This document shows positions 10,401-36,210 of a stretch of 38,667 nucleotides of DNA, piece after piece. This DNA is from a virus (taxonomy: Duplodnaviria > Caudoviricetes). The translations under genes and the position numbers were made by a program. The notes under the pieces are model-generated. The model made no database searches and was not told the DNA's origin. It worked only from the letters and a program-made list of their open reading frames with translations. The stretch lies in IMG/VR virus record IMGVR_UViG_3300033143_002750, positions 1 to 38,667 of that record; one strand, given 5' to 3'. Every line of letters starts with the position of its first letter. The stretch's first letter is position 1.

Positions 10401-11637
10401 CCTTTAAACCTGCTCTAATTGTATTTGTATCATTTCTGCTTATTGTATTTGTTACTTCTAATAAACCGAAAAAATCTGCCTCGGCAGTAATCCCTTTAAT
10501 ATGAGCGTTAAGTGGAAGGTATTCATTTTCTAATTTTCTTTTAAGACCAAATAACTTAATTAAGATTTCTTCAATAGTAAAATCTTGTAACTCTTCAGTC
10601 TTAGGCAAATCCTCATCAGTAAAACTATCAGGTACAATCCTGTTAATTCTATAGATAAGTTCAAACATGCTTGTTTTTCTAAAGTTTTTATTAGGTAAAG
10701 TTATACTCTTATCATCAAACTGTACCGTAGGAGAAAATAAATCTATAGCATTACTTTGAATATAATTTCCAAATTGTGGAGAATTACCATTTACATTTTT
10801 CCAAAACTCTTTAAGCTTTAAATTATCATAACCAAAAAACTTAATTGCATTTATTAAACCTTTATAAGAACCAATAAAAGGGTAAATATTACTACCTTCC
10901 ATCATTATCTCTTTTCTCTTGGTATTAATTTCTACATAATCAGGTAAAGCCTCCTTTAAATTAGTGTCTCTAAATACAGTACTGTCTGAAGCAATAACAC
11001 TATATCCCATGTTTTGAGTCATGACTCTAAGTCTTTCATCTTCTTCAATACTTTCGGCATATACAGTAAATTCTGCTACAACAGTATTTGTACATTTATC
11101 TGTAATGATTAAAGTTCTCTTGTAAGTATTTTCTTGGCTTGATGAAAAGGTAATATTTACTTGTAATGCCAATGATCTAATATCATCGGTAATAATATAA
11201 CCTTCACCATTAACTTTTTGGCTATCATCAAAATCTAGTGGAACAAAAAGTTTATCAACTTTAACTAAAGGTGGACCATCAGGTTCTTGTACTAATGCCG
11301 ATTGAGTACCTGTATCAAAATTCTTGTCAAATTGAAAAAGAAATATTTCTTTTGGCGTATTAGTTTTCCATTCAACCTCCCAACCACATCCACCCTTACC
11401 AGTAGGATCCGCTGTTGAACCGTCTACATAGTCATGTGGAAAGCCAAACTCAAATGCACCAGTTGTAGCATTTATCATTTTTTGTAAAACAAAAATTTGA
11501 CCTACTTCAAATAAATCAATAGAAACCTCAGGAAGAAATATATCACCATACCACTTATCAGCAGTATCGTCATACTTCATATTGTAATTCTTTCCTTGCT
11601 TATCAAAGAAATATAAATGTTTCCAGTTATTAGTCAC
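7498..11637 (-). CDS. Large baseplate wedge-type protein with PKD/Ig-like segments and an inserted zincin-like domain
   Basis: 1379 aa, GTG start; GSYKGLINAIKFFGY resembles the wedge (gp7/P2 gpI-like) motif; PKD-like VGDYSVEMKLFD and FKDPGKYVITLEL; two genes downstream of gp6-like gene. Confidence 0.65.
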   Translation of the reverse strand: MTNNWKHLYFFDKQGKNYNMKYDDTADKWYGDIFLPEVSIDLFEVGQIFVLQKMINATTGAFEFGFPHDYVDGSTADPTGKGGCGWEVEWKTNTPKEIFLFQFDKNFDTGTQSALVQEPDGPPLVKVDKLFVPLDFDDSQKVNGEGYIITDDIRSLALQVNITFSSSQENTYKRTLIITDKCTNTVVAEFTVYAESIEEDERLRVMTQNMGYSVIASDSTVFRDTNLKEALPDYVEINTKRKEIMMEGSNIYPFIGSYKGLINAIKFFGYDNLKLKEFWKNVNGNSPQFGNYIQSNAIDLFSPTVQFDDKSITLPNKNFRKTSMFELIYRINRIVPDSFTDEDLPKTEELQDFTIEEILIKLFGLKRKLENEYLPLNAHIKGITAEADFFGLLEVTNTISRNDTNTIRAGLKADFEVNPKACTYLEDLRIFNEFCLKEGAIVGKAIIESCNAYINPLRAGTQAVGSNMVIDYVPGQVLPPPPIGPDTNSVLGALESGENVTVSDIAGVFLAYFARYAPDLDRTQADFVPGESSKSLPDKPGAPSGAIITLNNTSTAGITWDNVNSTWDQLSNANDFFTFDFNIQAPNVGDIYQLTDSVTGSSVSHTVLATDTVQTITTSLYDQIVLLKNTQTDPWLWFDWSQIDNVIGPAIRCYGNDVNRFVPSVILANSNNGGQFTFIQQPGETLYTWDGINYGNIAEIEWTVYKDETPGISPPYFFTIRGPIAKYNTLPIVLPYVGDYSVEMKLFDMYNNISSIVKMEEICVDSKEVEYSGWYQARKSTYTWDAEGKYKWNDYGSLWNLPIEPSVTWDEETPSLYESLDRVNAILNNFGIGTNTDFQIRNFQDGGKASFSGPYQWKNLNDRSCTWDNGFHLWWDMTATTGDTPAFFQFSTVVPNSYLKIVDRYGTAGQEYFDFSVTTLGDAVDILNVSTNPIINKYVYNLVMNAASSEIFVQAVARYYGHFGDFTSVDMVDVDGIRICADGTGNATDYVGGPLEETVLYPPFDRSLAINGVTLLGLPELGGTEKVSDEFIKKVARVYEMILDPDGPNINYNKQAAVLQSLQSKKTIQRIGYEGMGAYFPPLESYAGWDQTNDDNANVDFIWELDGVTPQDKITEVLEHALHTITTFGLPGAYPNVFNQTSPYGPTYNAMSEAINNGVFDISGYTQQPGESNDEFNALLMREYLYLLIYSEWGFVAPYISGGSLSPEWTPITATDVEDQNPLGHSLYTTYIQTLLAKPNTDILDSMFATGGLSGYIPFEDNPIGGNIDCLSRIYKSSQSISNNPTWNTAKFINDGKVLPPMTWAMFVYDKCRIVGKDEPKWTITNTTNSSAADIYFNSKYLTYLFKDPGKYVITLELIDSNGNKYKKDRNILNIKQIK

Positions 11638-11643
11638 CGTCTC

Positions 11644-11913
11644 TTAATTTATTTTTTGATACCACTTAGGTACAGCAAAGTTAAAATAAATTCTCAAATA
11701 TTTTACACGGTTAATATAAAATACCATAATAGGGCTAAGATAATCTTCTAAGAAAGAACGTAGGTGTCTATTTCTAAACATATATGAAGACATATTATTT
11801 CTTAATAAGTTTAAGCCATAATCATATCCTGTATTTTTTAGCTCCCACCCTCTTTCATATGTAGCTCTGTACATGCTTGGAAACCCTACTCTATCATTTT
11901 TAACTGTTGCCAT
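11644..11913 (-). CDS. Small hypothetical protein, probably baseplate-associated
   Basis: 89-aa ORF tightly packed (1 and 6 nt gaps) between gp6-like and large wedge genes. Confidence 0.65.
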   Translation of the reverse strand: MATVKNDRVGFPSMYRATYERGWELKNTGYDYGLNLLRNNMSSYMFRNRHLRSFLEDYLSPIMVFYINRVKYLRIYFNFAVPKWYQKIN

Positions 11914-11914
11914 A

Positions 11915-13771
11915 TTATTTTCCTTTTAATGCTTTAAGTGTTGGTGTATTTTCTAACCTACCTGTGTTTAAACCTCTGGAGTTAACTCCTGTTGCAATCG
12001 TTGTTCCTCGGTTTCTTTGGACTTGGTTATACTTTTCTTGTTGTATTTTATTATAAAGATTATCAGCAATAGCTTCTTTATAGAATACATTAAGTGAACT
12101 GATTTTATTCTGCTCTGGGATAGGCTCATAAAAAGTTCCATTCCTATCTTCCCAACCACCTCTTATGATTGCTAAGTCATTATTTTCAATAACAATATAA
12201 CCAAAGCTATCTAATCCTAAATTAGGATCTTCACCTTTCTTAAGTACGATCTTTTTATTTTCAATTAAAACTCTTTGATCTGTAACAGGATCTGTTCCAT
12301 AGACAGGCACAAAATAAAAACCATCTCTAATTGCCTTTTCATTTTCTTCTGAGATAAAAAATACATTTACAGAATCAATACCTTCTACGTTTTCAATTAT
12401 TGAAATAATATCCGAACGAGGAATCCTATCTCTTCTATTTACATTTAAGAAATAATCATCTAAGTTTTTTCTTATTTGAATTCTTATTTCATCTTTATCA
12501 AAATTATCAAACCATCTTATTACAACATTGAGTGCATATCTTTTAATAATAGGATCTATGATTCTTGTCTCTGCTGTAACAACTTGTCTGCCACTAGTAT
12601 TTAAAATTTCATATGTCATTTCTTTTTCCTGTGCCGTCATTGTAAACTCATTCTCAGGTATGCTGAAATAATCTAAGTCACTTGTTATTTTTTTCTTTAT
12701 ATCTGGGATTAAGAATAAGTAAATAATATTATCATCATTTAAGTATTCATCATTTTTTGTATTATAAGCATCTATGAAAGACCAGAAGTCATACTTACTC
12801 AAATAGTAAATATAATTATTAGGATTAGCTAAAACAAATGAATTACTTTGATATGGTGCTATTAGCCTTGTGAATTCAGGATCTTCAGTATCAGAACCAA
12901 ACATTGGGTTCCTTACAATATTCATTGCAAGAACTTCATTTAAATCCACCTGTTCACCTGCTTGATTTGTTCCAGGTTCCGAAAATTTAATATCCAATTG
13001 TTTACCACCGATATTACCTACTTGGCCAGCACTTTTAACATAGCTTATTCTAATCCTAGCTCCTAATGCAGGAGGTCTACCAAACTGATTGTTTCCAAAG
13101 AAACAACTAAGACCACCATTAACACTACTTTTTATCATTGCACATTTCTCATTAGGATTCATGTCATACAGTGAATCAACTAATTTCCAAAGTTCTCCAT
13201 CTACATGAACCGATACTAAAAATTGATCAGTAGGATCTTTTGTGGTTAAATTATAACTCTGTAAAGGTAAGCCTGTTCCAGTAAATGACTGTTCATCTTG
13301 TTCTCCTTGTACAACTTCAACATTAACAAACTGCTTATTAGTTTTTTCTAATCTAATGAAGTCACTATTAAATCTTAAAAAATATGTTTGACCATTTTGT
13401 CCAACTTCAAAAGATGACCCATTCATAATCTGAACAAAGTTTCCTTCGACGAGGCTAGCCGCACTTGTATTCAATCGTAATCCAATTATACCTCTTGCAG
13501 AAATACTTCTTGTAGGATCATGACCAGTTAATCTGGATAATCCGTAGATAGATTCAATATTTCTAGCTCGGGATATATTTAATTCTGTAGCTACTGCTTC
13601 AATGTAAAAGAATATTAATTCACCTAAGTTAGCGACTACTGTTAATACTTGACCAAATGGAGAAGCTGGAGTAAAAGTTTCTACGGCCTGGTCATAAGTA
13701 CGTCCAAGATATTCGAATGCATCAGAAAATAATTCCGTTGCCCTAATTCTACTTTTACTAAAAAATGACAT
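11915..13771 (-). CDS. gp6: Baseplate wedge subunit, T4 gp6 / baseplate J-like
   Basis: 618 aa; FTPASPFGQVL...FYIEAVATELNISRARNIESIYGLSRLTGHDP; FGNNQFGRPP...IRISY; follows gp25-like gene. Confidence 0.85.
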   Translation of the reverse strand: MSFFSKSRIRATELFSDAFEYLGRTYDQAVETFTPASPFGQVLTVVANLGELIFFYIEAVATELNISRARNIESIYGLSRLTGHDPTRSISARGIIGLRLNTSAASLVEGNFVQIMNGSSFEVGQNGQTYFLRFNSDFIRLEKTNKQFVNVEVVQGEQDEQSFTGTGLPLQSYNLTTKDPTDQFLVSVHVDGELWKLVDSLYDMNPNEKCAMIKSSVNGGLSCFFGNNQFGRPPALGARIRISYVKSAGQVGNIGGKQLDIKFSEPGTNQAGEQVDLNEVLAMNIVRNPMFGSDTEDPEFTRLIAPYQSNSFVLANPNNYIYYLSKYDFWSFIDAYNTKNDEYLNDDNIIYLFLIPDIKKKITSDLDYFSIPENEFTMTAQEKEMTYEILNTSGRQVVTAETRIIDPIIKRYALNVVIRWFDNFDKDEIRIQIRKNLDDYFLNVNRRDRIPRSDIISIIENVEGIDSVNVFFISEENEKAIRDGFYFVPVYGTDPVTDQRVLIENKKIVLKKGEDPNLGLDSFGYIVIENNDLAIIRGGWEDRNGTFYEPIPEQNKISSLNVFYKEAIADNLYNKIQQEKYNQVQRNRGTTIATGVNSRGLNTGRLENTPTLKALKGK

Positions 13772-13784
13772 TCAATTTATTTTT

Positions 13785-14147
13785 TTAAAAAAGAGCTCCT
13801 ATAACTCTCTGTTCATCTACAAATATATCTACAAAAGCACCATCCCTCTCATCAGTTGAAAAGAATGTAACTTGAGTATCTATTGTATACCCAGCTAGAT
13901 CTGGTAAACAATACGCAGCTATCTGGCTATTAATTTTATTTTGGATTGTACTTTCGTTATTAACAAATGAAAATAACAAGTCTTCCAAATTACAACCCAT
14001 ACTTGGTGCCCCTAAAACATCACCTGTTCTTGTAAAAAGAACATTTTCAATTTTTAAAATTAATTGAGAGATTGAATCAGATACCTCTAAAGTATTATCA
14101 TTATACTTAGGATCTTCAACATCTCTACTATAAATATCTCTAATCAT
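13785..14147 (-). CDS. gp25: Baseplate wedge subunit, T4 gp25-like
   Basis: 120 aa; IENVLFTRTGDVLGAPSMGCNLEDLLF matches the gp25/GPW signature. Confidence 0.85.
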   Translation of the reverse strand: MIRDIYSRDVEDPKYNDNTLEVSDSISQLILKIENVLFTRTGDVLGAPSMGCNLEDLLFSFVNNESTIQNKINSQIAAYCLPDLAGYTIDTQVTFFSTDERDGAFVDIFVDEQRVIGALF

Positions 14148-14184
14148 TAAAGAACACTAATTTTTTATTATATATTCTCTTTAA
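14147..14184 (-). promoter_or_regulatory. Late-promoter-like motif (14169-14176) inside a 7-bp inverted repeat covering the A of the ATG
   Basis: Minus strand TTAAAGA-gAATATATAataaaaaattagtgt-TCTTTAA-TG. Confidence 0.5.
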
Positions 14185-14207
14185 AATTAATAGCTTTCAG
14201 ATTATAA

Positions 14208-15071
14208 TTATCCAGTGAAAAAGTAATCAACACCTTCATCTCCTTTTATTTCTTCAACTATTCTATCTACTTCTTCTCTACCTTCTGATTGAATTAGGTC
14301 ATAATTAATTGTAATGTTACCTGGAAGATTAAACGAGAATGTACCTAGTATTCTAGACAATTGAATTTTTGCTTGTCCAATGACATATCTTTCAAAAGCT
14401 TCATCTTGAAATAATGCACAATCAGAAATTGTTGAAAAGATTTCAAATATAACAGCATTCTTTGGTAGCTCACCCTGAAACCTAAACTTTTTAGTTAGTC
14501 TATTATATGTATATGATATTTGTGGTAATAAAACTTGTCTTGTATTATCTAAGAATAAAGAGTTAACAACATAATACATTAAGTTCTCACTACCTATACC
14601 TGCACCATATACATCACTATATATAAACTTATCAATTGAAAAGTCTACATCGCCAGCATTAAAACTATAATCACCAAATCCACCATCTTCACCACTAAAG
14701 CCACCTATTTCAAAAACATCATTAACGGAATATACTCGGGACGGCATCTGAACAATGCCTCTTGGATTATTTATATTTTTCTTATTAGTGATAGTTTCAT
14801 TATCTTGTCCACTACCATAAGGAACACCTTGTTTAAAATCTGATTTATGCAAAGCGCCGGCAGGTAAAGCAATATACATTTGCTCTACACTATCTTCATA
14901 GATTTTATAAAAATATTTTTTTGCTCTTTGTATAATGTTTGCTAATTCCTTCTTAGGAACTGTGAATGGAATCTGGCATGCTATTGTTAATTCATCATTA
15001 ATTAACTTAATTAATGCGTCTAAACATTCAGCTTCCTCTGGATCATTACAATAAGTATTCTTATTAGCCAT
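14208..15071 (-). CDS. gp13: Neck (head-tail connector) protein, T4 gp13-like
   Basis: 287 aa; C-terminal YVIGQAKIQLSRILGTFSFNLPGNITINYDLIQSEGREEVDRIVEEI...FFTG matches gp13 pattern. Confidence 0.8.
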   Translation of the reverse strand: MANKNTYCNDPEEAECLDALIKLINDELTIACQIPFTVPKKELANIIQRAKKYFYKIYEDSVEQMYIALPAGALHKSDFKQGVPYGSGQDNETITNKKNINNPRGIVQMPSRVYSVNDVFEIGGFSGEDGGFGDYSFNAGDVDFSIDKFIYSDVYGAGIGSENLMYYVVNSLFLDNTRQVLLPQISYTYNRLTKKFRFQGELPKNAVIFEIFSTISDCALFQDEAFERYVIGQAKIQLSRILGTFSFNLPGNITINYDLIQSEGREEVDRIVEEIKGDEGVDYFFTG

Positions 15072-15077
15072 CTTATT

Positions 15078-16370
15078 TTATATTTTTTCTATTTCAATTA
15101 TTTCAGCATTTTCAAATCGTGCTAATTTAGTAGCTCTACCTTTTCTAAATATACCACCTTCCATCTCACCACTAAATACACCTCTTATACCAAAGACATA
15201 TGAATCTTTACATATTACATTTTTGCTAACATATGAATCTTCAATTTTTGAATCTGCAACATCAGTAGATCCAAATAAATTACTTTCTAAAATTGATGAA
15301 TTAATTAATTCAGAACTAAAGATATCACAATTTATAATATTACCTTGTATCTTAGAGTCAACAATGTCAACACCATTAATTTCAAAACACTTCATTAGCT
15401 CAGCATTTTTTATTTGCATTTTACCAGTATCTGCATCATAATTAATTAAAGCCTCAGTTAGTCCAGCTTTAGTCAAAAGATCAAAAAGTTTCTCTCTCAT
15501 TTTAGGATAAAAGGTTTCTATAATTTGATCATAAGTTTTTAAATCTACCATTAAATGAATTTTAGGAAAGTTCTTTTTAAATGTTTGATAATCTCTATAA
15601 GATTCTATAACACTTCTATGGTTTTCTAAAATAGCATCTAATTTTTTAATGTCTTCTTCATTATAGACTGGATCTGTTAAAGTTTCATATAGTGATAAAA
15701 CAAAATGTTCCGTTAAATCCATAATTGTGTTATACTTTTTTTCATAATCCTTACCACCTAAATATCTAAACTCTATATAATTTTTAGGTATCTTTGAAAA
15801 GTTAACACCGTAATATTTTTCAGAAACAAACAAGTAATTTTTCCAGGAGACTTTTTCTGGAGAAGGTTGAGTCATACCACTTAATGGCACAATAAATTTT
15901 ATAGATTTAGCATAAACAGAATCTTTTCTATTTGGAAATGCTTCATAAACTTTATCTTCATCAAAGTTTAAAACAAATTTACCTATGTCTAAACTAGATA
16001 CATTTGTTGGGGTACCTAATTTATGTCCATCAAATGCTACATTAATATGAATAGAGCATCTTTCATTTGTGCTCCCGTTCTCTCTAATCCATTTTAATGT
16101 TTTAGCGATAATTAGTTTAGCCTCTACAAAAGGAAGTGGTCCTGTAACCATTTCAATCATCCCAGTTCCACCCGAATTATCTGGCTCTAGTTTAAAGACT
16201 TCATCGCTTGGAGTAAAATCACTATGAGCCTTTTCTTCTACTCTAATTTGCTTATTTAAAGTTTGGGATAAACCTCTCTTTACTTCATCAAGCCCTTCAT
16301 TGGCAAAGAATTCAAATTCAATACCAATCTTTGAAGCATATATAGCATTAAGTTGTTCGTTAGTGTACAT
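15078..16370 (-). CDS. Putative amidoligase (COOH-NH2 ligase, Amidoligase_2-like) with C-terminal beta-helix-like repeats
   Basis: 430 aa; motifs IGIEFEF, EPDNS, IEMVTGPL, TNERCSIHINV, KYYGVN, IEFRYLGG; C-terminal 5-6 residue repeats IVDSK/IINCD/LINSS/ILESN/IEDSY. Confidence 0.75.
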   Translation of the reverse strand: MYTNEQLNAIYASKIGIEFEFFANEGLDEVKRGLSQTLNKQIRVEEKAHSDFTPSDEVFKLEPDNSGGTGMIEMVTGPLPFVEAKLIIAKTLKWIRENGSTNERCSIHINVAFDGHKLGTPTNVSSLDIGKFVLNFDEDKVYEAFPNRKDSVYAKSIKFIVPLSGMTQPSPEKVSWKNYLFVSEKYYGVNFSKIPKNYIEFRYLGGKDYEKKYNTIMDLTEHFVLSLYETLTDPVYNEEDIKKLDAILENHRSVIESYRDYQTFKKNFPKIHLMVDLKTYDQIIETFYPKMREKLFDLLTKAGLTEALINYDADTGKMQIKNAELMKCFEINGVDIVDSKIQGNIINCDIFSSELINSSILESNLFGSTDVADSKIEDSYVSKNVICKDSYVFGIRGVFSGEMEGGIFRKGRATKLARFENAEIIEIEKI

Positions 16371-16373
16371 GTA

Positions 16374-16407
16374 GTTCCTGATTTGTTTATATATTCAAAC
16401 CAGGAAC
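16374..16407 (-). promoter_or_regulatory. 12-bp stem hairpin with late-promoter-like motif as loop; 3' arm contains AGGA just upstream of the amidoligase ATG
   Basis: Minus strand GTTCCTGGTTTG-AATATATAAA-CAAATCAGGAAC-TAC-ATG; 11 Watson-Crick pairs plus one G-U; no U-tract follows. Confidence 0.75.
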
Positions 16408-16411
16408 GGTG

Positions 16412-17554
16412 TTATGCAATGTTCATTGTAATCTTACGATCACTAACATTCACACTTCCAATTTTTACATTTACAGTATCACCTTTAGATAAGTCAGCAC
16501 CTTTTAATTTAGATTTATGAATTAATCCACTTATACCTTTTTCTAATTCAACAAAAGCACCGTATGAAGTAATCTTAGTAACTTTACCTTCAGTGATCAT
16601 CATAGGTTTATATTTTTCATCAACACCATCCCATAAATCAATCTTAGGTCCTAATTGGCTTAGGATTATTTTTCTATCTGATATAATTTCTTTTACCCAA
16701 AAGTTAATTTCGTCTCCAGGTTTTATTGCTCTATCATCTAAAGTCTTTTGCATTTCTTCGGTTAATTCAGCTTTCGGAATTAATCCTGTTAAGCATTCAT
16801 CAAATTCAGCAAATACACCAAACTTAGTGGTACCTGTAACAAAACCTACTCTAGGTTCTTTGATAGTTTCATTTAACTTTTCGATTGTTGAAGGAATCAT
16901 TGTTCTTAAATATTCTCTATGAGATACTACAATTGTATCCTTTTCATTAGAGAATGTTATTGGCATAACAATAATTTCTTTACCTACTAAAACATTAAAG
17001 TCATGTAATTTATTTAAGCCTCCTAGTGAACCTGGCATAAAACATTTAATCCCTGCTACATCAACCCAATATCCACCATGAATTAATTCTTTAACTTTAG
17101 CAGTAAACCCTACAGCCTTATTTCCAATAGCATCCTTTATTTCTCTAAGCTTAACTTCTTTTATTGCATCAGAGATAGAAGCAATAACATCTCCCGTAGA
17201 TTTGTTGGTTTTAATTTTAACATCAATTTCCATATCAACCTCTAATTGGTCTACAATATAATCTGGTTCTTTAGATAAAGTACAGTGAGCAGTAAATTTA
17301 GATTCGATGTCAATAAGAGCAGTTGTCTTATCTTTAGATATAAATGAAACAATACCTTTTGTTGTATATGCAACATTGTCTTCAATTAATTGAGTTTTTT
17401 GTAATGTATGATCAGTAAGACCGTATAATGCTAAAGCATCAGCAGCATACATTTCATTACACATTAATTTTGTACCGTCAGGGACTTGAACTTTTACTGT
17501 TTTAGTATCAAATGGATCATCACTTAGTTGAATGGTGATTTCTTGTTCGGTCAT
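16412..17554 (-). CDS. rpsA: Ribosomal protein S1 (bS1) homologue, four S1/OB domains
   Basis: 380 aa; GGYWVDVAGIKCFMPGSL...IVVSHR (domain 2), VTGTTKFGVFAEF..LTGLIP (domain 3), EGKVTKITSYGAFVELEKGISGLIHKS (domain 4). Confidence 0.9.
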   Translation of the reverse strand: MTEQEITIQLSDDPFDTKTVKVQVPDGTKLMCNEMYAADALALYGLTDHTLQKTQLIEDNVAYTTKGIVSFISKDKTTALIDIESKFTAHCTLSKEPDYIVDQLEVDMEIDVKIKTNKSTGDVIASISDAIKEVKLREIKDAIGNKAVGFTAKVKELIHGGYWVDVAGIKCFMPGSLGGLNKLHDFNVLVGKEIIVMPITFSNEKDTIVVSHREYLRTMIPSTIEKLNETIKEPRVGFVTGTTKFGVFAEFDECLTGLIPKAELTEEMQKTLDDRAIKPGDEINFWVKEIISDRKIILSQLGPKIDLWDGVDEKYKPMMITEGKVTKITSYGAFVELEKGISGLIHKSKLKGADLSKGDTVNVKIGSVNVSDRKITMNIA

Positions 17555-17586
17555 TTTTTATTTTTTAAGAAGTTAAAATTATAGAT

Positions 17587-17646
17587 TATATATTACTCTT
17601 TATGTATCTAATATTAATTATACATATAAGTTAGTTGTTTGTTTCA
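17587..17646 (-). promoter_or_regulatory. Tandem candidate promoters for S1: TGAAAC-N18-TATAAT (17646-17617) and late-like AATATATA (17594-17587)
   Basis: Both motifs read directly in the 92-nt intergenic region; each recurs elsewhere in the window. Confidence 0.45.
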
Positions 17647-17940
17647 TTATGTGATGGCACCTGTACCAGAACCTGCCTGAGCTGTTGCTGTTCCTACCGT
17701 CGTTACAGTAGTAGATACCAATCCTGATTTTATGTACTTATCAATTTCCAAACCGGCAATTTCACCAAATTTTTCGGCCTGTGCTTCTTCAATTGTAGCG
17801 GCTGAAACTGGCATCTTAAAGGGATCTCCTCCATCTTTTATATGTTCCAGGTTATCCTTTCCTGCTTTTCTACCTGCTTTATTGGCTTCTAACCAGGCTT
17901 TTTCCATTCCTGCCTGAATCTGAGATAATACTAATGGCAT
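17647..17940 (-). CDS. Small hypothetical protein next to gp5, possible spike-associated protein
   Basis: 97 aa; helical N-terminus, G/T/A-rich C-terminal VSTTVTTVGTATAQAGSGTGAIT; late motif at 17965-17972. Confidence 0.6.
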   Translation of the reverse strand: MPLVLSQIQAGMEKAWLEANKAGRKAGKDNLEHIKDGGDPFKMPVSAATIEEAQAEKFGEIAGLEIDKYIKSGLVSTTVTTVGTATAQAGSGTGAIT

Positions 17941-17970
17941 AATTTAATTGTTTGATTTATAGTTTATATA

Positions 17971-18891
17971 TTAGTCAGTTGTATTCTTTGAACTGTATGC
18001 ACCACCTGGTGATGGTACAATAGGTGGACTAGTCGGCGTACCTGATTTACTTGCAACATGTGTATGCCCATCTACCCAAGCTCTAAATGTATCACCTTTC
18101 ATAACTGACTCCGCCGCTGCTTCTCCTAGTTTAATACGTGGTGAATTAACATGAGTTTCAGCAGAAGCATTAATCTTAGCCTCAACACAATTAACAACAG
18201 TGTTAGTTGTAGCATTAATTACAGTATCAGCTCCACTGTTAATTGTAAACTGAGCCGAGTGTGTAAATGTTATATTACCATCATTAAGCATTATAATTGA
18301 ATCTCCGTTTGCATTTATTATTTCAACAGAGTTATCAGGCTTTACATTAACAGTTGTTGGACCTTCGGTTGTAGTATAGTCCATCATTAATCCTTTTTCT
18401 TCTGTAAAGAAAACTTTAATATGTTCACCTTCTCTTTCATTTGTTGCTTCAGATACCCCATCTTCTAATGCACCAGTTAAACCGAAAGCCGTATCATATA
18501 TTAATACATGAGAATTTTGATATGATGCTTCTATCTCCGCTTTTGTTTCATCAGAAGGATAAACATTTTCATGATAAACTGGTTGATAAAAATTTCCGTT
18601 GTCAAACGTGATCCTAACTATTGAGCCTAGTTTAGGAATTTCAAATTTACCACTTCCACTATTACTACCTCCATACATTAACTGATGTGGCCTTGACCAC
18701 GGTAAAGCAGCAGTAGGAATAATAAAAGCACTTTCAGGATCTTCAGGATCTACACGGTCATCCATTTTACCATATACCCTAATCTTACATCTCCCTTCAA
18801 AGATATCATCATTAGTATCTTCAACGATTCCTACCCATTGTGTAGTTCGCAAATCATCGGCATTAAAATTTGCTGGATTAACCTTTCCCAT
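17971..18891 (-). CDS. gp5: Baseplate central spike, gp5/gpV-like, without lysozyme domain
   Basis: 306 aa; OB-fold motifs WVGIVEDTND..EGRCKIRVYG, LPWSRP, IPKLGSIVRITFDNGN..QPVY; beta-helix repeats; C-terminal HTH (HxH) apex motif. Confidence 0.85.
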   Translation of the reverse strand: MGKVNPANFNADDLRTTQWVGIVEDTNDDIFEGRCKIRVYGKMDDRVDPEDPESAFIIPTAALPWSRPHQLMYGGSNSGSGKFEIPKLGSIVRITFDNGNFYQPVYHENVYPSDETKAEIEASYQNSHVLIYDTAFGLTGALEDGVSEATNEREGEHIKVFFTEEKGLMMDYTTTEGPTTVNVKPDNSVEIINANGDSIIMLNDGNITFTHSAQFTINSGADTVINATTNTVVNCVEAKINASAETHVNSPRIKLGEAAAESVMKGDTFRAWVDGHTHVASKSGTPTSPPIVPSPGGAYSSKNTTD

Positions 18892-20333
18892 TAGTTAAAA
18901 ATATTTTCGTTAGTTATAGTTGAATTATTTGGAGGGCCTGATGGACCGAATGCATTACCACCACTAAACTCACTAGGTGGAGTAACAGGATCAAACGCTT
19001 GAGTATTGCCTGCAATAGTTTGGTTAGGTTCATCGGCGGTACCTAATGGATTATCCCCAAGTCTTTGGCTAATATTTTCATTTTGACCAAATAGTTTTAA
19101 ACCATCTTCATTACCTTGAACTGCTGCACCAACTAAAGCATTACGTAAAGCCTGAGGGTTTCCTATACCACCTAAAGTAACTTGTGTCATATCAAACACA
19201 TTTCCTAATTGAACTGGATTTGCAAAACTAACAGCAGCTCTTCTACCTAAATCCAAAGCTCCATCAATAGCTTCATTTACCTGATCTTTTGCAAACGCTT
19301 TTACTTTACCAAAAAATTGATTATCTGTTTGTACTTTACTTGCATCTAATTTATTATCATAACCAGCAAACTGAGAAACATTTTCCATTAATGCATAAGT
19401 CCATTTAATTTCAGTAGTGGTTATTTCACCACCTGAATTAGTTACACCTTCAAATACTTTTCCAGATGCTCTAGGATCCCATTCACAATCAGTAAATTTA
19501 AAACCTACTTGTGATGCGTTTTGATTTACATAAGAATCAGAAGAATTTGTAGTACTAGGGTTTGTTGCCTGTAACCAATTTCTTGTGGTTTTAAATTTTC
19601 TTATTTCTTGAACATAAACATATACATCAAACTTCATTAAATTTTTAGGCAAAATAAATCGCTTGTACATACTATCATACACAGCCATTTTATATAAACT
19701 AAATAATGCAGTTAATTTTAAATCTATTGCTTCTAAACATCCTATAGTAATACCTTCTTCACCGCTACTTCCAGTATAAGGATCAATTGAAAAGTCTGTA
19801 GATTTTTGCCAAGCCTCTTGTATTCCTGCTATGGTTTGAAAATAATAAGGTCTTGTATTGTTAATTTCTTGTATGCCTTGAATAAATGCTTTTAGATATT
19901 TAGCTCGATTTACTTCACCTATGGCTTCTAGGTAACCAATAGCAGATGCACCGCTTGGTGTATTTAAATCTCCACCAGGTTTTTCTTTTGAAGTTTTATT
20001 AAATAATTGACCCGCAGCAGCTATACCTTGATTAACAGTATTCTCAACTGTAAATTCTCCATCGTTTATACCAGATCCAGGTCCTGATGTGGCGCCATTA
20101 AATAATGGTGATGATATATCAAACATTAAACTGAAGCCAAGATAAGTAGGATCATCTAATGAGGTTACTCCGTTAGCACCTGACCCATATGCAGATTTTG
20201 AATTATTAACAAATCTTTTAGCAAATTCATAACTGCTCGGGAAAGATGACCCACCCAAAAGGTTTCCGTAAGGTCCAGCTAACTGAGATACTCCGTTAAT
20301 TCCTGCAGGGCTAGTTAAATCTACTAAAGGCAT
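18891..20333 (-). CDS. Putative tail/baseplate structural protein (possible tube-fold)
   Basis: 480 aa between hub-like and gp5 genes; TAATG coupling to gp5; late motif at 20350-20357. Confidence 0.5.
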   Translation of the reverse strand: MPLVDLTSPAGINGVSQLAGPYGNLLGGSSFPSSYEFAKRFVNNSKSAYGSGANGVTSLDDPTYLGFSLMFDISSPLFNGATSGPGSGINDGEFTVENTVNQGIAAAGQLFNKTSKEKPGGDLNTPSGASAIGYLEAIGEVNRAKYLKAFIQGIQEINNTRPYYFQTIAGIQEAWQKSTDFSIDPYTGSSGEEGITIGCLEAIDLKLTALFSLYKMAVYDSMYKRFILPKNLMKFDVYVYVQEIRKFKTTRNWLQATNPSTTNSSDSYVNQNASQVGFKFTDCEWDPRASGKVFEGVTNSGGEITTTEIKWTYALMENVSQFAGYDNKLDASKVQTDNQFFGKVKAFAKDQVNEAIDGALDLGRRAAVSFANPVQLGNVFDMTQVTLGGIGNPQALRNALVGAAVQGNEDGLKLFGQNENISQRLGDNPLGTADEPNQTIAGNTQAFDPVTPPSEFSGGNAFGPSGPPNNSTITNENIFN

Positions 20334-20355
20334 ATTTTTATTGTTTTTATATTTA

Positions 20356-21840
20356 TTAAGTCGTTGGAGTGTATTCCCTACGCTGTAATTGTAATCTCAT
20401 TCTTAGTGGCCCTGGTTGTGTTAACAAATATTCAATACCAGTTATAACATAAAAGCCACTTAAATATTCATTAAGAATTCCACTGCCTGGACCTTTAGGT
20501 TCATCTTCATCTGACCTTTCTCTATCTTGTGGAGCTGGGTCGCCTGTTTGAGCTACACCATCTCGCTGTTCAGTTAATACAGTTTTAACTGGAGATCCAT
20601 ATTCAAAAATCAAAAGATAAATTCTACTATATCTAGTTAAAGCAGGATTTACAGTATCTAATTCTACTTCCATTCCCATTTTTTCTATTTCAGAATTATT
20701 TTGATAATTTTGAACTACAGCATATTGAAATTCAGGGTGGACATTATCGCCTTGTGTACCTAAATATTTGTATTTAACTTGACTATTTCTAGGGCCTTCT
20801 GGTTCACCGTTTATTACTCTACCTTTTGTTGCTGGTATTGTACCTTCAGTACCATTAGTAAGAGGATCCACAAATTCACTAATCCATTGCTTTGCTTCTA
20901 AATCCCAATACTGAGTATATCTTTTATATCCATTTGCTTTACTTATTTCTCCACTCTTATTAGTAGGTTTATATTTAGATAGATATCTTGCACCACCTTG
21001 CATTTGGATTAAATTAGATAATAGGTTAGGAAACGGAGTTTCACCGGTTGCACCATCTGCTCCATAAGTATCAGATGCATTTGTACTAAAACTTTGGCTT
21101 ACTTCTAACTCAGACTTATCTTGATCAAATAATCTATTAACGTCTACCATTGTTAAGTAATAATATGGATCAATGTAGCTTGTAAAAAATGTTTCGTCAC
21201 TTAAATAACTATTTGCAACTATGTCTTGTATCCAAGTTTCAGTTGTGTCATTAGGATTAGTCCATGTCATTTGATCTGCTGTATCTTCAACATTAGAAGC
21301 ATAACCTATTTTTAATCTTTCTGCTATATTTGATAATGCATCCCAGCTTGTAACATTTTCTTCATATTCAACCTTTTCAGTAAATAAATCAGGAATAAAC
21401 ATTCTACCAAATATGTTATATTCTTTAGCGGTCATTCCACCACCTCCACCAGCTGGAGAACAATCAATAATAGTAAAATCAATTCTTATAGGCTTAAATG
21501 TAGTTTCTTCACCTTGTGACCTAATGTAAAGTTGAATTATATCTCCATCTTTAGGATAATTTCTTGCAGTAAAAAGTCCATCAGTATCAGCAAATCTAAC
21601 TGTTAATGTTGGATAAAACCCAGTAGATTCTAAAGAAAAATATTTAAGCCTATCCATTTGAACTTGGTATTGATTAATTACAATCAAAGGAATGATAGAA
21701 GAAAATTTAGATAATTTTTCTTTCATAGTTACACCGTCAGAATTATCTGTACCACTTTCAGCATCAGGTATAAATAACTCATCTAGTTCAATAGTAGGTT
21801 CTATTATTGTTAATATGTTTCTTTCAATCTGTGTAGACAT
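20356..21840 (-). CDS. Baseplate hub protein, gp27/gpD-like
   Basis: 494 aa; C-terminal YLSGFYVITGIEYLL...MRLQLQRRE is the typical hub ending; position between gp53-like and gp5 genes. Confidence 0.65.
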   Translation of the reverse strand: MSTQIERNILTIIEPTIELDELFIPDAESGTDNSDGVTMKEKLSKFSSIIPLIVINQYQVQMDRLKYFSLESTGFYPTLTVRFADTDGLFTARNYPKDGDIIQLYIRSQGEETTFKPIRIDFTIIDCSPAGGGGGMTAKEYNIFGRMFIPDLFTEKVEYEENVTSWDALSNIAERLKIGYASNVEDTADQMTWTNPNDTTETWIQDIVANSYLSDETFFTSYIDPYYYLTMVDVNRLFDQDKSELEVSQSFSTNASDTYGADGATGETPFPNLLSNLIQMQGGARYLSKYKPTNKSGEISKANGYKRYTQYWDLEAKQWISEFVDPLTNGTEGTIPATKGRVINGEPEGPRNSQVKYKYLGTQGDNVHPEFQYAVVQNYQNNSEIEKMGMEVELDTVNPALTRYSRIYLLIFEYGSPVKTVLTEQRDGVAQTGDPAPQDRERSDEDEPKGPGSGILNEYLSGFYVITGIEYLLTQPGPLRMRLQLQRREYTPTT

Positions 21841-21846
21841 ATCTTA

Positions 21847-22383
21847 TTAATTGTTTCTATTTCTAGTTGGTAAATTAGTTCCTAATTGAATATTTCCACC
21901 TTCATATGTCTTAGCGTCTTGTCCTTGCTGTAGCACGTTTGGTGGTAATGGAGTTTTAACTCCTGATTTTTTTGACTTAGCTTTTTGAGCTAACCTTTGT
22001 ATACGAGATTGATCTTCTACACTTTGAACACCAGTATCAACATAAGGCTTCATAACAGGATTAGGCCTAGATGCAGGGTTTGGTCTTTTATAAACCAAAT
22101 TAATTTCACTTAAATTAGGTATGACTAAAACATCACCTTCTTGTACTGAAAACGGATTAAAGATATTATTAACAATACATAATGCATCAACATATTCACC
22201 TGTTCCAAAATATCTTTCGCATATCTTATCAATTCTACCAGCCTCATCTTGCATAACATAATGTAAAGCCTTAAGACCAGCAGCTTTATCATATTTAAAA
22301 GAAGGAGCAGTTAAATCATAATACTGTTCACCTGTTCTTTCAATACTTAATAAGTTTTTTAAAGTTAATGATTTTATATCCAT
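21847..22383 (-). CDS. gp53: Baseplate wedge protein, gp53-like with LysM-type fold
   Basis: 178 aa; YVMQDEAGRIDKICERYFG...LCIVNNIFNPFSVQEGDVLVIP. Confidence 0.75.
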   Translation of the reverse strand: MDIKSLTLKNLLSIERTGEQYYDLTAPSFKYDKAAGLKALHYVMQDEAGRIDKICERYFGTGEYVDALCIVNNIFNPFSVQEGDVLVIPNLSEINLVYKRPNPASRPNPVMKPYVDTGVQSVEDQSRIQRLAQKAKSKKSGVKTPLPPNVLQQGQDAKTYEGGNIQLGTNLPTRNRNN

Positions 22384-22396
22384 CCTTAATTATTTT

Positions 22397-24247
22397 TTAT
22401 GAATCAATTAGCATACTAACAACACTAGAAACATATTCACCGCTAGTTGCCTCTGTTGCCGGGGATGCGCTTCCAGTTGTCTTTTTAAGATTTGAAATAT
22501 CTTTACTTTTAACCTGACCTGCAGTTGCACCTGACTGAGTTTTTTGAATACTACTAGTTCCTACATTTGGAATAGCACCATATACTTTTATTTCTTTTCC
22601 TGATAAATTTAATATATCTTCAGCCTTATTAGCAGATGCATATATTCTACCTTTACCTGCATTAAACATATTTTCTATATCTCCTTTATCCCTAGGCTTT
22701 CCGTGAGCCATATCTAATTCAAATTTTACCTCCATTGGAAAATCATCATAACCTAATCCTGCACCTAATGTCATATTAGCATTTTTACATATCATATTAC
22801 CCATCATTGCAATCGGATTCAATGGATTACCAATTGTTAAATGCCAATCACCAGTAGGCTCACCACTAATGAAAGCTTTGGTTGCACCAGTACCACTATT
22901 ACCACCAACTTGTCCGCCTAATAAATTACCTAATAAGCCACCTAGATAATTCTTGGCTGTTTCAATCCCACCGCTTATGATTGAATCAAAATCAAATCCA
23001 CCATCAGCATTACCAAATACACTTTTAAATCCACCTTCAATATCATTAACTACACTACCTGCATAACCAGAAAAATCACCTTGTCTTAATTTTGAAATAT
23101 CTCCAAACTGACTAGCTACAAAACCAGCAGATCCATAATACCTATGCCCACCACCAAAGAATGCTCCATTATTAGTTGTCATAGTTAACATATTACTAAT
23201 AATATCAATCATTGCTATTTTTGGATTAACATAAGCTAATGATTTTAATTCATATTCAAAATTTAGTTTAATATCATTAGTAAAGTTTATACCTCTATCT
23301 CTTACTTGAGTTGTATTAACAACATTAATAGGACCTAATACAAAGTTTGCGTAAGTACTACCAAGTCGATCTCCACTCTGTGATCCGTAACCTTGTTGCT
23401 TTCTAAACACATCACCTGAACCTTGCCCTTTAGCTTGATTAGCAATCGCTCTACCTATACCACCAATTTTATTATAAAAAGGTTGCTGAGTATATCCACC
23501 ATCTCCGCCGCCTTCAATTTTTTCCATTTCACCTTTCAGTTCCTTAAAGGTTAAACCAAATGACATATTCATAATGTCCTCTAATTTATTACCAGCAGTT
23601 TCACCCATATAAGTAATTGCAGTTACACCTGCTACTTGTGAAGTATCACCGACTACTATTGGATCTTCTGGTGGTGGTTTTTCACCATCTTTAACTTCTT
23701 GCTTAACTGCCTGTGATTCCGAAAACTTAAATATGTTATCTTTAACTGGCATAGGAAACCTTCTAAGAGTAATTAAATGATTAACTGGTATCTTCTTATA
23801 ATATTTAGAATATAAAAAATTAGAAGCAGTATATCCTATTTTTGGATGTGCTTCATTAAAGTAATTTATTATTTTCATGACAGTAGGTTTGTTACCTGCC
23901 TCTCCACCCATCAGTTTACCAGCGGCTCTTTCAGTATCCATGTAATTACCTTTAAATCCTTGGTCAGTTGCAAAATCTCCATACATTCCTTGGAAGTTAA
24001 ATAGTGCGTACTTATTAGCTATTGAACCTACGATTTTTTTACCTGACATACCTTTAGGGATGGTATCACCTGAAGCTTCTGCTGCATTATCAGCTGAATA
24101 AAAACTAGTTGCAACGGTATCAGCCAAAGATCTAGCAAAGCCTACACTCTCTCCACCAAATACGCCTAATATTTGATCATTATTTTTATTAGGCCCTGGA
24201 AAAATAGAGTCATTTAAGTCTCTTATCTTTTGTCCAAACTTTGCCAT
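22397..24247 (-). CDS. Putative baseplate-tail tube junction protein (gp48/gp54-like)
   Basis: 616 aa; NMICKNANMTLG...DDFPMEVKFELDM resembles tube-fold C-terminus; Gly-rich inserts; directly upstream of gp53-like gene; late motif at 24267-24274. Confidence 0.5.
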   Translation of the reverse strand: MAKFGQKIRDLNDSIFPGPNKNNDQILGVFGGESVGFARSLADTVATSFYSADNAAEASGDTIPKGMSGKKIVGSIANKYALFNFQGMYGDFATDQGFKGNYMDTERAAGKLMGGEAGNKPTVMKIINYFNEAHPKIGYTASNFLYSKYYKKIPVNHLITLRRFPMPVKDNIFKFSESQAVKQEVKDGEKPPPEDPIVVGDTSQVAGVTAITYMGETAGNKLEDIMNMSFGLTFKELKGEMEKIEGGGDGGYTQQPFYNKIGGIGRAIANQAKGQGSGDVFRKQQGYGSQSGDRLGSTYANFVLGPINVVNTTQVRDRGINFTNDIKLNFEYELKSLAYVNPKIAMIDIISNMLTMTTNNGAFFGGGHRYYGSAGFVASQFGDISKLRQGDFSGYAGSVVNDIEGGFKSVFGNADGGFDFDSIISGGIETAKNYLGGLLGNLLGGQVGGNSGTGATKAFISGEPTGDWHLTIGNPLNPIAMMGNMICKNANMTLGAGLGYDDFPMEVKFELDMAHGKPRDKGDIENMFNAGKGRIYASANKAEDILNLSGKEIKVYGAIPNVGTSSIQKTQSGATAGQVKSKDISNLKKTTGSASPATEATSGEYVSSVVSMLIDS

Positions 24248-25540: not shown

Positions 25541-26455
25541 CTATGATCTTTCTTGTAATTTTAATCTTAGTTCTTTTAATGTTTTTCTTGCAACTTTTTT
25601 ATCAGTATGCCAAGTAGATTTATCTTTAACCATTGTCATAGCAAACACTTCTCTTAATTGCTCAATCTCTTTATCAGTATATCCCTCTTCTTTCCACTGA
25701 GACATTTTAATAGATTCTAATTCTTCTAATTTTGCTGATAGCGCTTGGTCTGCATTCTCTAAATTTGCAGTATGAATTTCATTTCCTTTTTCTCTAGTCT
25801 TTTTACAAACTTCAAGCCAATCTTTTAATGATAATTTACTTTTCATTTTTAAAATTCCTTGGTGTTTCATAGCCGCTCTTCTTTGGCGACGATTAGGTAT
25901 AGTTTGATTTGCAGTCTCGCTCATATGATTAATTTTATTATATATTACTAATGATTGTATACTATTATATAAACAGTCTAATATTTCATCTTCAGATAAT
26001 TGATCGTTAATAAATGATTGCAATACATCATTAACTTCATTTCTATCAAAAGAAGTACTCATTAATTCGTAAACGGCTTTTTGTGGAATGTTTACTGGAA
26101 ATTCTAAAAGAAGTTTTACTTTGTTGTTTTTCTTTTGTTTATCAAATAAAACTCTAATAGGGTTTGGTGTAGCATCTAAAGCAGGAATTGAAACCTCAGT
26201 TGGTAGCTTTTGTGCTGCTGATACATTTAACGGATCTGTTTCAGTAGATGTAGGGTTTACAAACTCACCAGCTATATCTTCATCTAATAGTTGAATAAAT
26301 TCATCCTGTAAATCTTTTGCTAATCTACCACCTTCATTAAAGTTTATCCACTTATCATCAGTATCTTTAATAGTAACTACATCACCAGATTTTTCTCCTT
26401 TAATCCATTGATAGTACACCTTCTCTTGTACTTTCTCGGTTTTATCTTTTTGCAT
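25541..26455 (-). CDS. Hypothetical ORF, probably two genes read as one (about 26455-25945 and 25924-25541)
   Basis: Internal late motif (25939-25946), AT-only linker VIYNKINH, in-frame ATG at 25924, abrupt shift from acidic to basic composition. Confidence 0.6.
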   Translation of the reverse strand: MQKDKTEKVQEKVYYQWIKGEKSGDVVTIKDTDDKWINFNEGGRLAKDLQDEFIQLLDEDIAGEFVNPTSTETDPLNVSAAQKLPTEVSIPALDATPNPIRVLFDKQKKNNKVKLLLEFPVNIPQKAVYELMSTSFDRNEVNDVLQSFINDQLSEDEILDCLYNSIQSLVIYNKINHMSETANQTIPNRRQRRAAMKHQGILKMKSKLSLKDWLEVCKKTREKGNEIHTANLENADQALSAKLEELESIKMSQWKEEGYTDKEIEQLREVFAMTMVKDKSTWHTDKKVARKTLKELRLKLQERS

Positions 26456-36104: not shown

Positions 36105-36210
36105 ATTCCGTTTATTTTATTATAATATAAATATAATACATTTAATTGGGAATTGAACTATAAACTCTTGTTTTTTTCAAAAAGTTATTAACAATTTTAA
36201 AACAAAGTTG

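What the first reader, a model, noticed from the sequence alone, without database searches (positions are those of the whole stretch)
16412..17646. Phage-encoded four-domain ribosomal protein S1 inside the baseplate/neck cluster, with two promoter types
Seen: a 380-aa S1 homologue with four OB repeats and a divergent N-terminal extension lies between the gp5 region and gp13. It is preceded by both an AAAC..TATAAT-type and a late-type motif. Known: Gram-negative S1 usually has six domains, binds A/U-rich leaders and unfolds mRNA structure, and S1 homologues have been reported in huge phages. Inference: combined with the short A-rich, SD-less late leaders and the start-masking hairpins, this looks like a translation-takeover system where phage S1 replaces host S1 and favours virion mRNAs. 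This is my best candidate for an undescribed system in the window.
Basis: partly seen in the sequence, partly recalled or inferred. Interest (0 to 1): 0.75.

Follow-up and report, generated by a model that had tools for sequence, protein, structure and literature searches.

The report
Phage four-domain ribosomal protein S1
A large uncultured aquatic phage carries, among its tail and neck genes, a shortened four-domain copy of bacterial ribosomal protein S1 that is predicted to dock on the host ribosome and likely boosts translation of phage messages in general; such phage genes and this idea were published in 2020 and remain untested.

Summary
The gene is real. ORF 16412-17554(-) encodes a 380-aa bS1 homologue with four OB folds colinear with E. 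coli D1-D4. It keeps the uS2-contact residues D39/K43, and its first 145 residues are predicted to bind Flavobacterium uS2 (0.80; best control 0.00; possibly by likeness to solved complexes). It is a core gene: 67 of 67 loci picked by gp13 hold it, and it heads an S1/amidoligase-like/gp13/gp25/gp6 unit down to about 26% identity. In 540-735 kb phages it sits elsewhere. Both promoter motifs are conserved (middle-type 85/92, late-type 89/92), but the upstream consensus is KAAACA-N17-TAHAAY.

The host is likely Bacteroidota, whose own S1 has a long N-terminus and whose mRNAs lack SD. The 'extension' is therefore a rebuilt host anchor, and SD-less leaders are a host trait. Virion-gene leaders do not differ significantly from other phage leaders. 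The one hairpin I tested masks the next gene's leader and is opened by a late promoter, as in T4. 'Favours virion mRNAs' is not supported; a general boost to phage translation is likelier.

Phage rpS1 and the takeover idea are published (Al-Shayeb 2020). This scan noted the family on other DNA many times.

The parts
16412..17554 (-). Phage bS1 homologue, 380 aa, four S1/OB domains colinear with bacterial D1-D4
17483..17551 (-). N-terminal beta-hairpin (residues 2-24) with the DDPFD turn; F15-D16 align with the F-D/N-W motif of Bacteroidota S1, without the W; residues 1-23 are not named in the predicted uS2 interface
17381..17485 (-). Anchor segment, residues 24-58: family-typical K-[IVL]-[YLF]-[SC]-x-E-x-Y strand followed by helices; predicted to contact uS2 32-45
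17177..17368 (-). D1 (residues 63-126); D82 and K86 correspond to E. coli D39 and K43, which contact uS2; K86 is invariant in 32 close relatives
16922..17107 (-). D2 (residues 150-211); Y162 and F172 correspond to E. coli F120 and F130; family-specific loop SL(A/G)GxNKL, with N181 (81 of 85) at the place of E. coli R139
16658..16855 (-). D3 (residues 234-299); F245 and F248 kept, the conserved His replaced by P260 in this clade
16418..16597 (-). D4 (residues 320-379); Y331, F334 and H346 kept; no D5 or D6 follows
17617..17645 (-). Middle-type promoter-like motif GAAACA-N17-TATAAT (clade consensus KAAACA-N17-TAHAAY)
17586..17594 (-). Late-type promoter-like motif AATATATAA
17555..17585 (-). A-rich, SD-less, unstructured leader of S1 (predicted dG 0.0; no SD in 92 of 92 relatives)
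16374..16407 (-). 12-bp hairpin (-15.8 kcal/mol) masking positions -15 to -4 of the next gene's leader in read-through RNA, with a late box (16387-16395) in its loop
15078..16370 (-). 430-aa amidoligase-like ORF, the first recognised gene downstream of S1 in 156 of 160 distant loci
14208..15071 (-). gp13-like head-tail adaptor
   Evidence: phrog_211
13785..14147 (-). gp25-like baseplate wedge subunit
11915..13771 (-). gp6-like baseplate wedge subunit
17647..17940 (-). 97-aa ORF, highly variable in size among relatives, no family hit
17971..18891 (-). gp5-like baseplate hub/spike gene (N-terminal OB domain)

Best explanation
The gene encodes a four-domain copy of ribosomal protein S1 that is predicted to dock on uS2 of a likely Bacteroidota host's 30S subunit and would act there as a spare or replacement S1, likely raising initiation on the phage's A-rich, unstructured, SD-less mRNAs in general from the middle phase of infection on. 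Shown: the fold, the D1-D4 identity, kept contact residues, core-gene status and two conserved promoter-like motifs. Predicted: uS2 docking through residues 24-58 and D1. Inferred: (i) a phage sigma70-like factor reads the middle motif and a gp55-like factor the late one; (ii) the hairpin keeps the next gene silent until late, so S1 appears before the virion genes it leads; (iii) host S1 is loosely bound, so phage S1 exchanges into the single S1 site; (iv) any advantage to phage messages comes from their leader make-up against host leaders, not from a virion-specific code.
For: Domains and fold. E. coli S1 lacking D5-D6 is viable, and D1-D3 is the minimal functional protein (PMC3858243, passages). 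D82/K86 correspond to D39/K43; Y162/F172 correspond to F120/F130. uS2 complex: score 0.80, best of 3 controls 0.00; the mark was reached by 116 of 157 solved complexes and 2 of 215 mismatches; runs agree in at least 97% of contacts; partner pLDDT at least 86. Core gene: 67 of 67 gp13-picked loci with gp5 upstream, of 80 examined. Host: the bS21 of a relative is closest to F. johnsoniae bS21 (E 2e-11, against 1.6e-6 for the third-ranked chain). An FDW-type motif is in 78 of 79 Bacteroidota S1, 22 of 85 family members and 0 of 41 other bacterial S1. The closest named records are Prevotella Lak phages. G001 encodes a gp55-like and a sigma70-like factor and shows three promoter classes. Phage leaders are more A-enriched over their coding background than those of a host proxy (0.198 vs 0.09, p 1e-10) and less structured. 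Extra bS1 doubles initiation amplitude on an SD-less mRNA in F. johnsoniae, and bS1 is sub-stoichiometric in purified ribosomes (PMC9976891, passages).
Against: Nothing here measures binding or translation. S1-uS2 complexes are solved, so the pass may reflect likeness, and no host-S1 comparison was folded. The E. coli anchor depends on F5/F9 stacking, while D39 and K43 mutations matter little; the phage anchor is rebuilt and its 30-50 region has pLDDT 56-60 when folded alone. K86 is K or R in only 53 of 85 distant members and P260 replaces the D3 His. The host proxy is one genome (400 kb) with automatic start calls. bS21 is found in only 7 of 15 records searched, several of them fragments. The tree does not place the family inside Bacteroidota.
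Confidence: 0.6

Rival explanations
1. Displacing, host-discriminating S1: it docks on uS2, evicts six-domain host S1 and, lacking D5-D6 and with an altered D2 loop, would fail on structured host mRNAs while serving unstructured phage mRNAs, so it shuts down host translation.
For: Phage leaders are less structured and more A-rich than host-proxy leaders. The anchor strand and the D2 loop are family-specific and conserved. D5-D6 loss makes E. coli cold-sensitive and was proposed to affect specific mRNAs.
Against: E. coli S1 without D5-D6 still supports growth and initiation on structured rpsO mRNA. No host-S1-modifying enzyme was recognised among 149 (Pfam) and 88 (PHROG) of the 214 ORFs called in the 65%-complete G001.
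Confidence: 0.15
2. Off-ribosome RNA chaperone or cofactor, for example of a nuclease or repressor that switches off early mRNAs (as host S1 stimulates T4 RegB) or of transcription.
For: It has a middle-type promoter. Early-promoter leaders carry a tag, ACGGAA, just before the start (6 of 12 early boxes against 0 of 29 late boxes; also in G002-G004). Host S1 has such roles in T4 and Q-beta (PMC10931766, passages).
Against: It keeps the uS2-binding D1 and a predicted uS2 interface. It lacks D5, and RegB stimulation needs D4-D5. RegA, RegB and CsrA families were found in 0 of 5 records each, although the first two searches had no positive control.
Confidence: 0.12
3. One reading: phage S1 replaces host S1 and selectively favours virion (late) mRNAs, including by opening start-masking hairpins.
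For: Late box before S1 in 89 of 92 close and 73 of 120 distant upstream regions. Position at the head of a neck/baseplate unit. A weak trend to higher A enrichment in virion leaders, 0.241 vs 0.188, p 0.08.
Against: No significant leader difference between virion and other genes. Early- and middle-motif genes are as A-rich as late ones (0.62, 0.61, 0.63). The hairpin is removed by starting transcription in its loop. S1 lies away from gp13 in the 634-735 kb phages and among replication genes in Lak.
Confidence: 0.08
4. Virion component or assembly factor, packaged or injected, which would explain its place among baseplate genes.
For: Deeply conserved position in the neck/baseplate block, with no replication genes recognised nearby in 160 distant loci.
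Against: It has its own middle-type promoter. Inversions often break just upstream of S1 (25 of 141 loci). The gene is separated from gp13 by 46 kb or more in four megaphages. It keeps ribosome-contact residues.
Confidence: 0.05

Closest known systems
'Possible rpS1' genes of huge phages (Al-Shayeb et al. 2020, PMC7162821; passages read)
   Same: [quoted passage not shown] Homologues at 33-46% identity lie in GenBank huge-phage records of 462-735 kb and in Lak phages.
   Different: The passages read give no domain assignment, docking model, promoter analysis or synteny, and say that true rpS1 identity is hard to confirm. I did not establish which of their genes these records' ORFs are: supplement searches found no match and two files were too large to read.
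Bacterial ribosomal protein bS1 (rpsA), E. coli and Bacteroidota types
   Same: Colinear D1-D4, kept D39/K43 and F120/F130 equivalents, predicted uS2 docking, remnant of the Bacteroidota FDW-plus-helix anchor (F. johnsoniae residues 1-42 contact uS8 and uS2; PMC13000457, passages).
   Different: No D5-D6; far below every NCBIfam rpsA cut-off; beta-hairpin in place of the uS8-binding helix; family-specific D2 loop; a separate long branch in the tree.
bS21-encoding Bacteroidetes myophages (Chen et al. 2022, PMC9723584; parts 1-2 of 6 read)
   Same: A 30S initiation protein kept within core structural genes of 300-kb aquatic Bacteroidetes phages and linked to late expression, with the same substitution model.
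   Different: Different protein; bS21 there is on the opposite strand in the TerL/portal/capsid block and was shown transcribed. Here bS21 is sporadic and, in G001, lies outside that block.
T4 late-promoter-in-hairpin leaders (genes e, soc, 49, I-TevI; PMC3014915, passages)
   Same: The hairpin after S1 masks the next gene's leader in read-through RNA and holds a late box in its loop.
   Different: It masks an A-rich SD-less leader (-15 to -4), not an SD or the AUG.
PhiMa05 jumbo cyanophage bS1 (PMC13157829, passages)
   Same: Phage-encoded bS1.
   Different: A host-like gene acquired in a cluster with five other ribosomal proteins; not compared with this family here.

Membership tests
Bacterial bS1 (rpsA) | Tandem S1/OB repeats colinear with D1 onward | tested here: met
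Bacterial bS1 (rpsA) | Curated family score (NCBIfam rpsA equivalogs) | tested here: not met
   best 142 bits against a cut-off of 624; TIGR00717 125 against 577
Bacterial bS1 (rpsA) | Six domains, as in Gram-negative and Bacteroidota hosts | tested here: not met
   four domains; Bacteroidota S1 are about 590 aa or longer; D1-D4 suffices for E. coli viability
Bacterial bS1 (rpsA) | D1 residues that contact uS2 (D39, K43) | tested here: met
   D82 and K86; less conserved in distant members
Bacterial bS1 (rpsA) | N-terminal anchor that binds uS2 | tested here: inconclusive
   predicted interface 0.80 vs control 0.00, possibly by likeness to solved complexes; sequence rebuilt relative to hosts
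Bacterial bS1 (rpsA) | Binds 30S and stimulates initiation in vitro or in vivo | not testable with these tools
   needs biochemistry
Bacteroidota-type bS1 | F-[DN]-W motif plus helix before D1 | tested here: inconclusive
   this protein has P-F-D without W; the motif is in 22 of 85 family members and 78 of 79 hosts
Bacteroidota-type bS1 | Branches within or beside Bacteroidota S1 | tested here: inconclusive
   not nested; a phage-plus-Bacteroidota clade is not rejected, p-AU 0.67, log-likelihood 12 higher than the quick tree
Huge-phage rpS1-like proteins | Multi-S1-domain gene in a large phage genome | tested here: met
   T4-like virion genes around it; one side of a 99% branch with the huge-phage and Lak ORFs
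Huge-phage rpS1-like proteins | Genome poor in SD sequences | tested here: met
   0 of 26 window genes tested and 1 of 106 G001 genes have a 5-nt SD

The most novel reading that the evidence does not exclude
A whole lineage of T4-like Bacteroidota phages (about 200-735 kb; some 600 IMG/VR contigs carry the family motif) has kept, since one ancient capture, its own S1 with a rebuilt uS2/uS8 anchor and a fixed new D2 loop at the site that T4 ModB modifies in E. coli S1. It builds phage-specialised ribosomes that out-compete host S1 and discriminate by leader, against structured host mRNAs or against early mRNAs tagged ACGGAA.
Probability: 0.2. Interest if true: 0.75.

Novelty: new member of a known kind. 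Interest (0 to 1): 0.33.

Why it matters
If the protein works on the ribosome, it would extend the tested phage ribosomal proteins (bS21 and bL12; PMC6375957, passages) to the main mRNA-recruiting protein, in hosts that initiate without SD pairing. The idea is published and untested. This analysis adds a testable construct: a predicted uS2 interface with named residues, a likely host group with an in vitro system (F. johnsoniae), evidence that the gene is core to a large phage lineage, and evidence that any selectivity should be sought between phage and host leaders, not between late and early genes.

Tried and rejected
Transcription evidence: RNA-library contigs from 4 runs cover parts of the gene (for example 16483-16840 with no differences, and 17073-17587) at depth 2-5, without strand or ends, so they show neither expression nor start sites. 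A generic sigma70 scan found 28 sites against 27.2 expected and did not call the S1 promoter. The Bacteroidota housekeeping box TAnnTTTG (recalled) is not enriched before genes (11 of 152). Obligate pairing with bS21 rejected: 7 of 15 records, and absent from two records at least 90% complete. Obligate S1-amidoligase pairing rejected: the two lie 49 kb or more apart in four megaphages, and no amidoligase match was found in Lak-B2, which uses another code. RegA, RegB and CsrA: 0 of 5 records each; only CsrA had a positive control. No ADP-ribosyltransferase hit among the G001 ORFs scanned. No antisense partner of the ACGGAA tag was evident in G001: 1 of 13 reverse matches is intergenic. The ESM Atlas gave no informative neighbour for residues 1-62. 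PHROGs has no family for the protein. The careful tree did not finish; the quick tree is reported. The fold of the 430-aa neighbour was not obtained, so its active site is unchecked. Literature searches found no paper testing a phage S1; subscription journals are not covered.

Full report
Observation. The window is a 38.7-kb fragment of a T4-like phage (virus record, estimated 15% complete) with almost all genes on the minus strand. ORF 16412-17554(-) is 380 aa. Pfam gives S1 at E 4e-22. NCBIfam rpsA models cover residues ~64-379, well below their cut-offs. Against the PDB it aligns in one stretch with E. coli S1 residues 11-345 and with F. johnsoniae S1 residues 29-370 (entry 9zcd also holds F. 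johnsoniae bS21). AlphaFold with 32 relatives gives four OB folds and an N-terminal beta-hairpin plus two helices, and Foldseek ranks 30S-bound bS1 first. The domains are D1-D4, not a random set of repeats. The neighbours are gp5-like, a variable 97-aa ORF, S1, a 430-aa ORF, gp13-, gp25- and gp6-like genes. The 430-aa ORF has no Pfam hit itself; its nearest ESM Atlas clusters (score 0.96) carry Amidoligase_2 on 12-29% of members, so 'amidoligase-like' is a lead.

Promoters. GAAACA-N17-TATAAT (17645-17617) and AATATATAA (17594-17586) precede the gene. AATATATAA occurs 6 times on the minus strand, each just before an ORF. In the 181-kb relative G001, 22 of 29 copies lie within 110 nt of a start (expected fraction 0.12). 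Among 92 distinct upstream regions from 144 close loci the late box is in 89 and the middle motif in 85, with spacer 17 or 16; the literal AAAC..TATAAT is in 15. I fitted the middle pattern on these sequences, so that count is partly circular. Independent support is that 5 of its 8 matches in G001 precede starts, among them the uvsX-like and late-sigma genes. It is clade-specific: 4 of 120 distant upstream regions have it, while 73 have the late box. G001 shows a third, early-type box (11 of 12 before starts) and encodes both a gp55-like and a sigma70-like factor. The assignment of classes to factors and to times is inference.

Conservation and position. Of 64 loci picked by S1, 63 have the amidoligase-like and gp13 genes downstream (one contig ends) and 60 have gp5 upstream. 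To avoid selection bias I picked 80 loci by gp13: 67 reach gp5, and all 67 hold S1 between them. In 160 distant loci (157 under 50% identity, near-duplicates included) the first recognised downstream gene is the amidoligase-like one in 156. gp5 is upstream in 101 of 124 loci long enough to tell, and in 25 of 141 the nearest large upstream gene is on the other strand. S1 thus heads a stable unit. The order also holds, with insertions, in a 462-kb record, but not in four 634-735 kb records, where S1, amidoligase and gp13 are scattered, nor in two Lak phages, where S1 lies among replication genes. The position likely reflects conserved gene order and timing, not a structural role.

Host and origin. 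bS21 genes of relatives resemble Flavobacteriia bS21, and Lak phages are assigned to Prevotella, so the host is likely Bacteroidota. Bacteroidota S1 has a long N-terminus with an F-[DN]-W motif (78 of 79) that contacts uS8, followed by a helix that contacts uS2 (PMC13000457, passages). An FDW-type motif is in 22 of 85 family members and 0 of 41 other bacterial S1. In a joint alignment this protein's F15-D16 and L40/L43/Y44 fall on the host motif and helix. The 'extension' is therefore a rebuilt host anchor. A quick tree of 73 rows (29 of 78 family, 22 of 77 Bacteroidota, 22 of 41 other) puts the family on one side of a 99% branch, not inside Bacteroidota. Joining it with Bacteroidota is not rejected. 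Most family rows are unnamed 330-450 aa representatives that I take as phage proteins from length and clustering, without context.

Ribosome docking. D82 and K86 match E. coli D39 and K43, and Y162 and F172 match F120 and F130 of the D2 mRNA pocket. Residues 1-145 folded with F. johnsoniae uS2 scored 0.80 against a best control of 0.00 (mark reached by 116 of 157 solved and 2 of 215 mismatched pairs; runs agree in at least 97% of contacts; partner pLDDT at least 86). K86-T88 sit on uS2 14-20 and 204-209, and K29-C32 on uS2 33-36. S1-uS2 structures exist, so this shows likeness at least and binding at most. Residues 1-23 are not named in the interface. The most fixed family-specific residue, N181 (81 of 85), sits where E. 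coli has R139, a T4 ModB target; Bacteroidota have K there, and I found no such enzyme in G001.

Selectivity. In G001, leaders of virion-module genes (29) and other genes (106) do not differ in A content (0.58 vs 0.56, p 0.34) or folding (p 0.79). Early-, middle- and late-motif genes are alike (0.62, 0.61, 0.63). Late-motif genes exceed all others (p 0.004), which is confounded by the A-rich box itself. With strict starts there is a weak trend (p 0.08). A marine Flavobacterium proxy is equally SD-less, but its leaders are less A-enriched and more structured than the phage's. S1's own leader is unstructured. The conserved hairpin (two pairs with compensatory changes among 18 sequences) masks the amidoligase-like gene's leader in read-through RNA and cannot form from the late box in its loop, as in T4 gene e. 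It separates S1's timing from the next gene's and needs no S1. I did not survey other hairpins in the window.

Mechanism and verdict. Most likely the phage makes its own S1 from the middle phase on. It docks on uS2, exchanges with the loosely bound host S1 and sustains SD-independent initiation on phage mRNAs as a class (0.6). Rivals are a host-discriminating displacer (0.15), an off-ribosome cofactor (0.12), virion-mRNA selection (0.08) and a virion part (0.05). Phage rpS1, its correlation with SD-less genomes and the substitution model are in print, as is the parallel bS21 case. Searches found no functional test. Earlier notes of this scan describe the same family on other genomes. It is a new member of a known, untested kind: interest 0.33.

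Noticed in passing
window 36106-36136 (-), before the DNA ligase gene; G001 105117-105158, 105671-105714, 106123-106158, 109904-109940, 114697-114736, 123955-123992: Early-type box TTATATTTATA followed by an AAAACGGAA tag just before the start codon: 6 of 12 early boxes against 0 of 29 late boxes in G001 (Fisher p 2.5e-6 by gene), also in G002-G004. It looks like an operator or cleavage tag for early mRNAs; CsrA was not found in 5 records, and the RegA and RegB searches were blank without positive controls.
   Followed up: partly
window 15078-16370 (-): 430-aa amidoligase-like protein (ESM Atlas neighbours carry Amidoligase_2), core to the lineage and held silent until late by a hairpin; substrate unknown, fold not obtained.
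   Followed up: partly
window 16374-16407 (-): T4-style late-promoter-in-loop hairpin adapted to an SD-less host: it masks the A-rich -15 to -4 region.
   Followed up: yes
window 17647-17940 (-); L464, L470, L510, L522, L563: The slot between gp5 and S1 holds an ORF that varies from about 80 to 1,690 aa among relatives, possibly a variable spike-tip or effector position.
   Followed up: no
G001 50058-51275 (L158:12058-13272): ATP-grasp protein with a weak hit to a PHROG named ribosomal protein S6 glutaminyl transferase (E 1e-5); bS6 forms part of the anti-SD pocket in Bacteroidota.
   Followed up: no
L070 and L071 (Lak phages), S1 ORFs at about 11600-12717: The Lak homologues keep the FDW motif, match only to the end of D3 and end in an acidic tail.
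   Followed up: partly
window 25541-26455 (-): In relatives this region is two ORFs, and a late box lies inside the window's 304-aa frame at 25946; the window may hold a read-through fusion or an internal start.
   Followed up: no
window 26507-33028 (-): 2,173-aa collagen-repeat tail fibre with locally high GC (45-50%).
   Followed up: no
L065 (LR756500.1) 13295-23730: Many short ORFs beginning with an MKYIxxYEEF-like sequence are inserted in the S1-gp13 block; similar N-termini recur in G001.
   Followed up: no
L043 10001-11139: The S1 gene appears as two frames in this contig: a frameshift or an assembly error.
   Followed up: no
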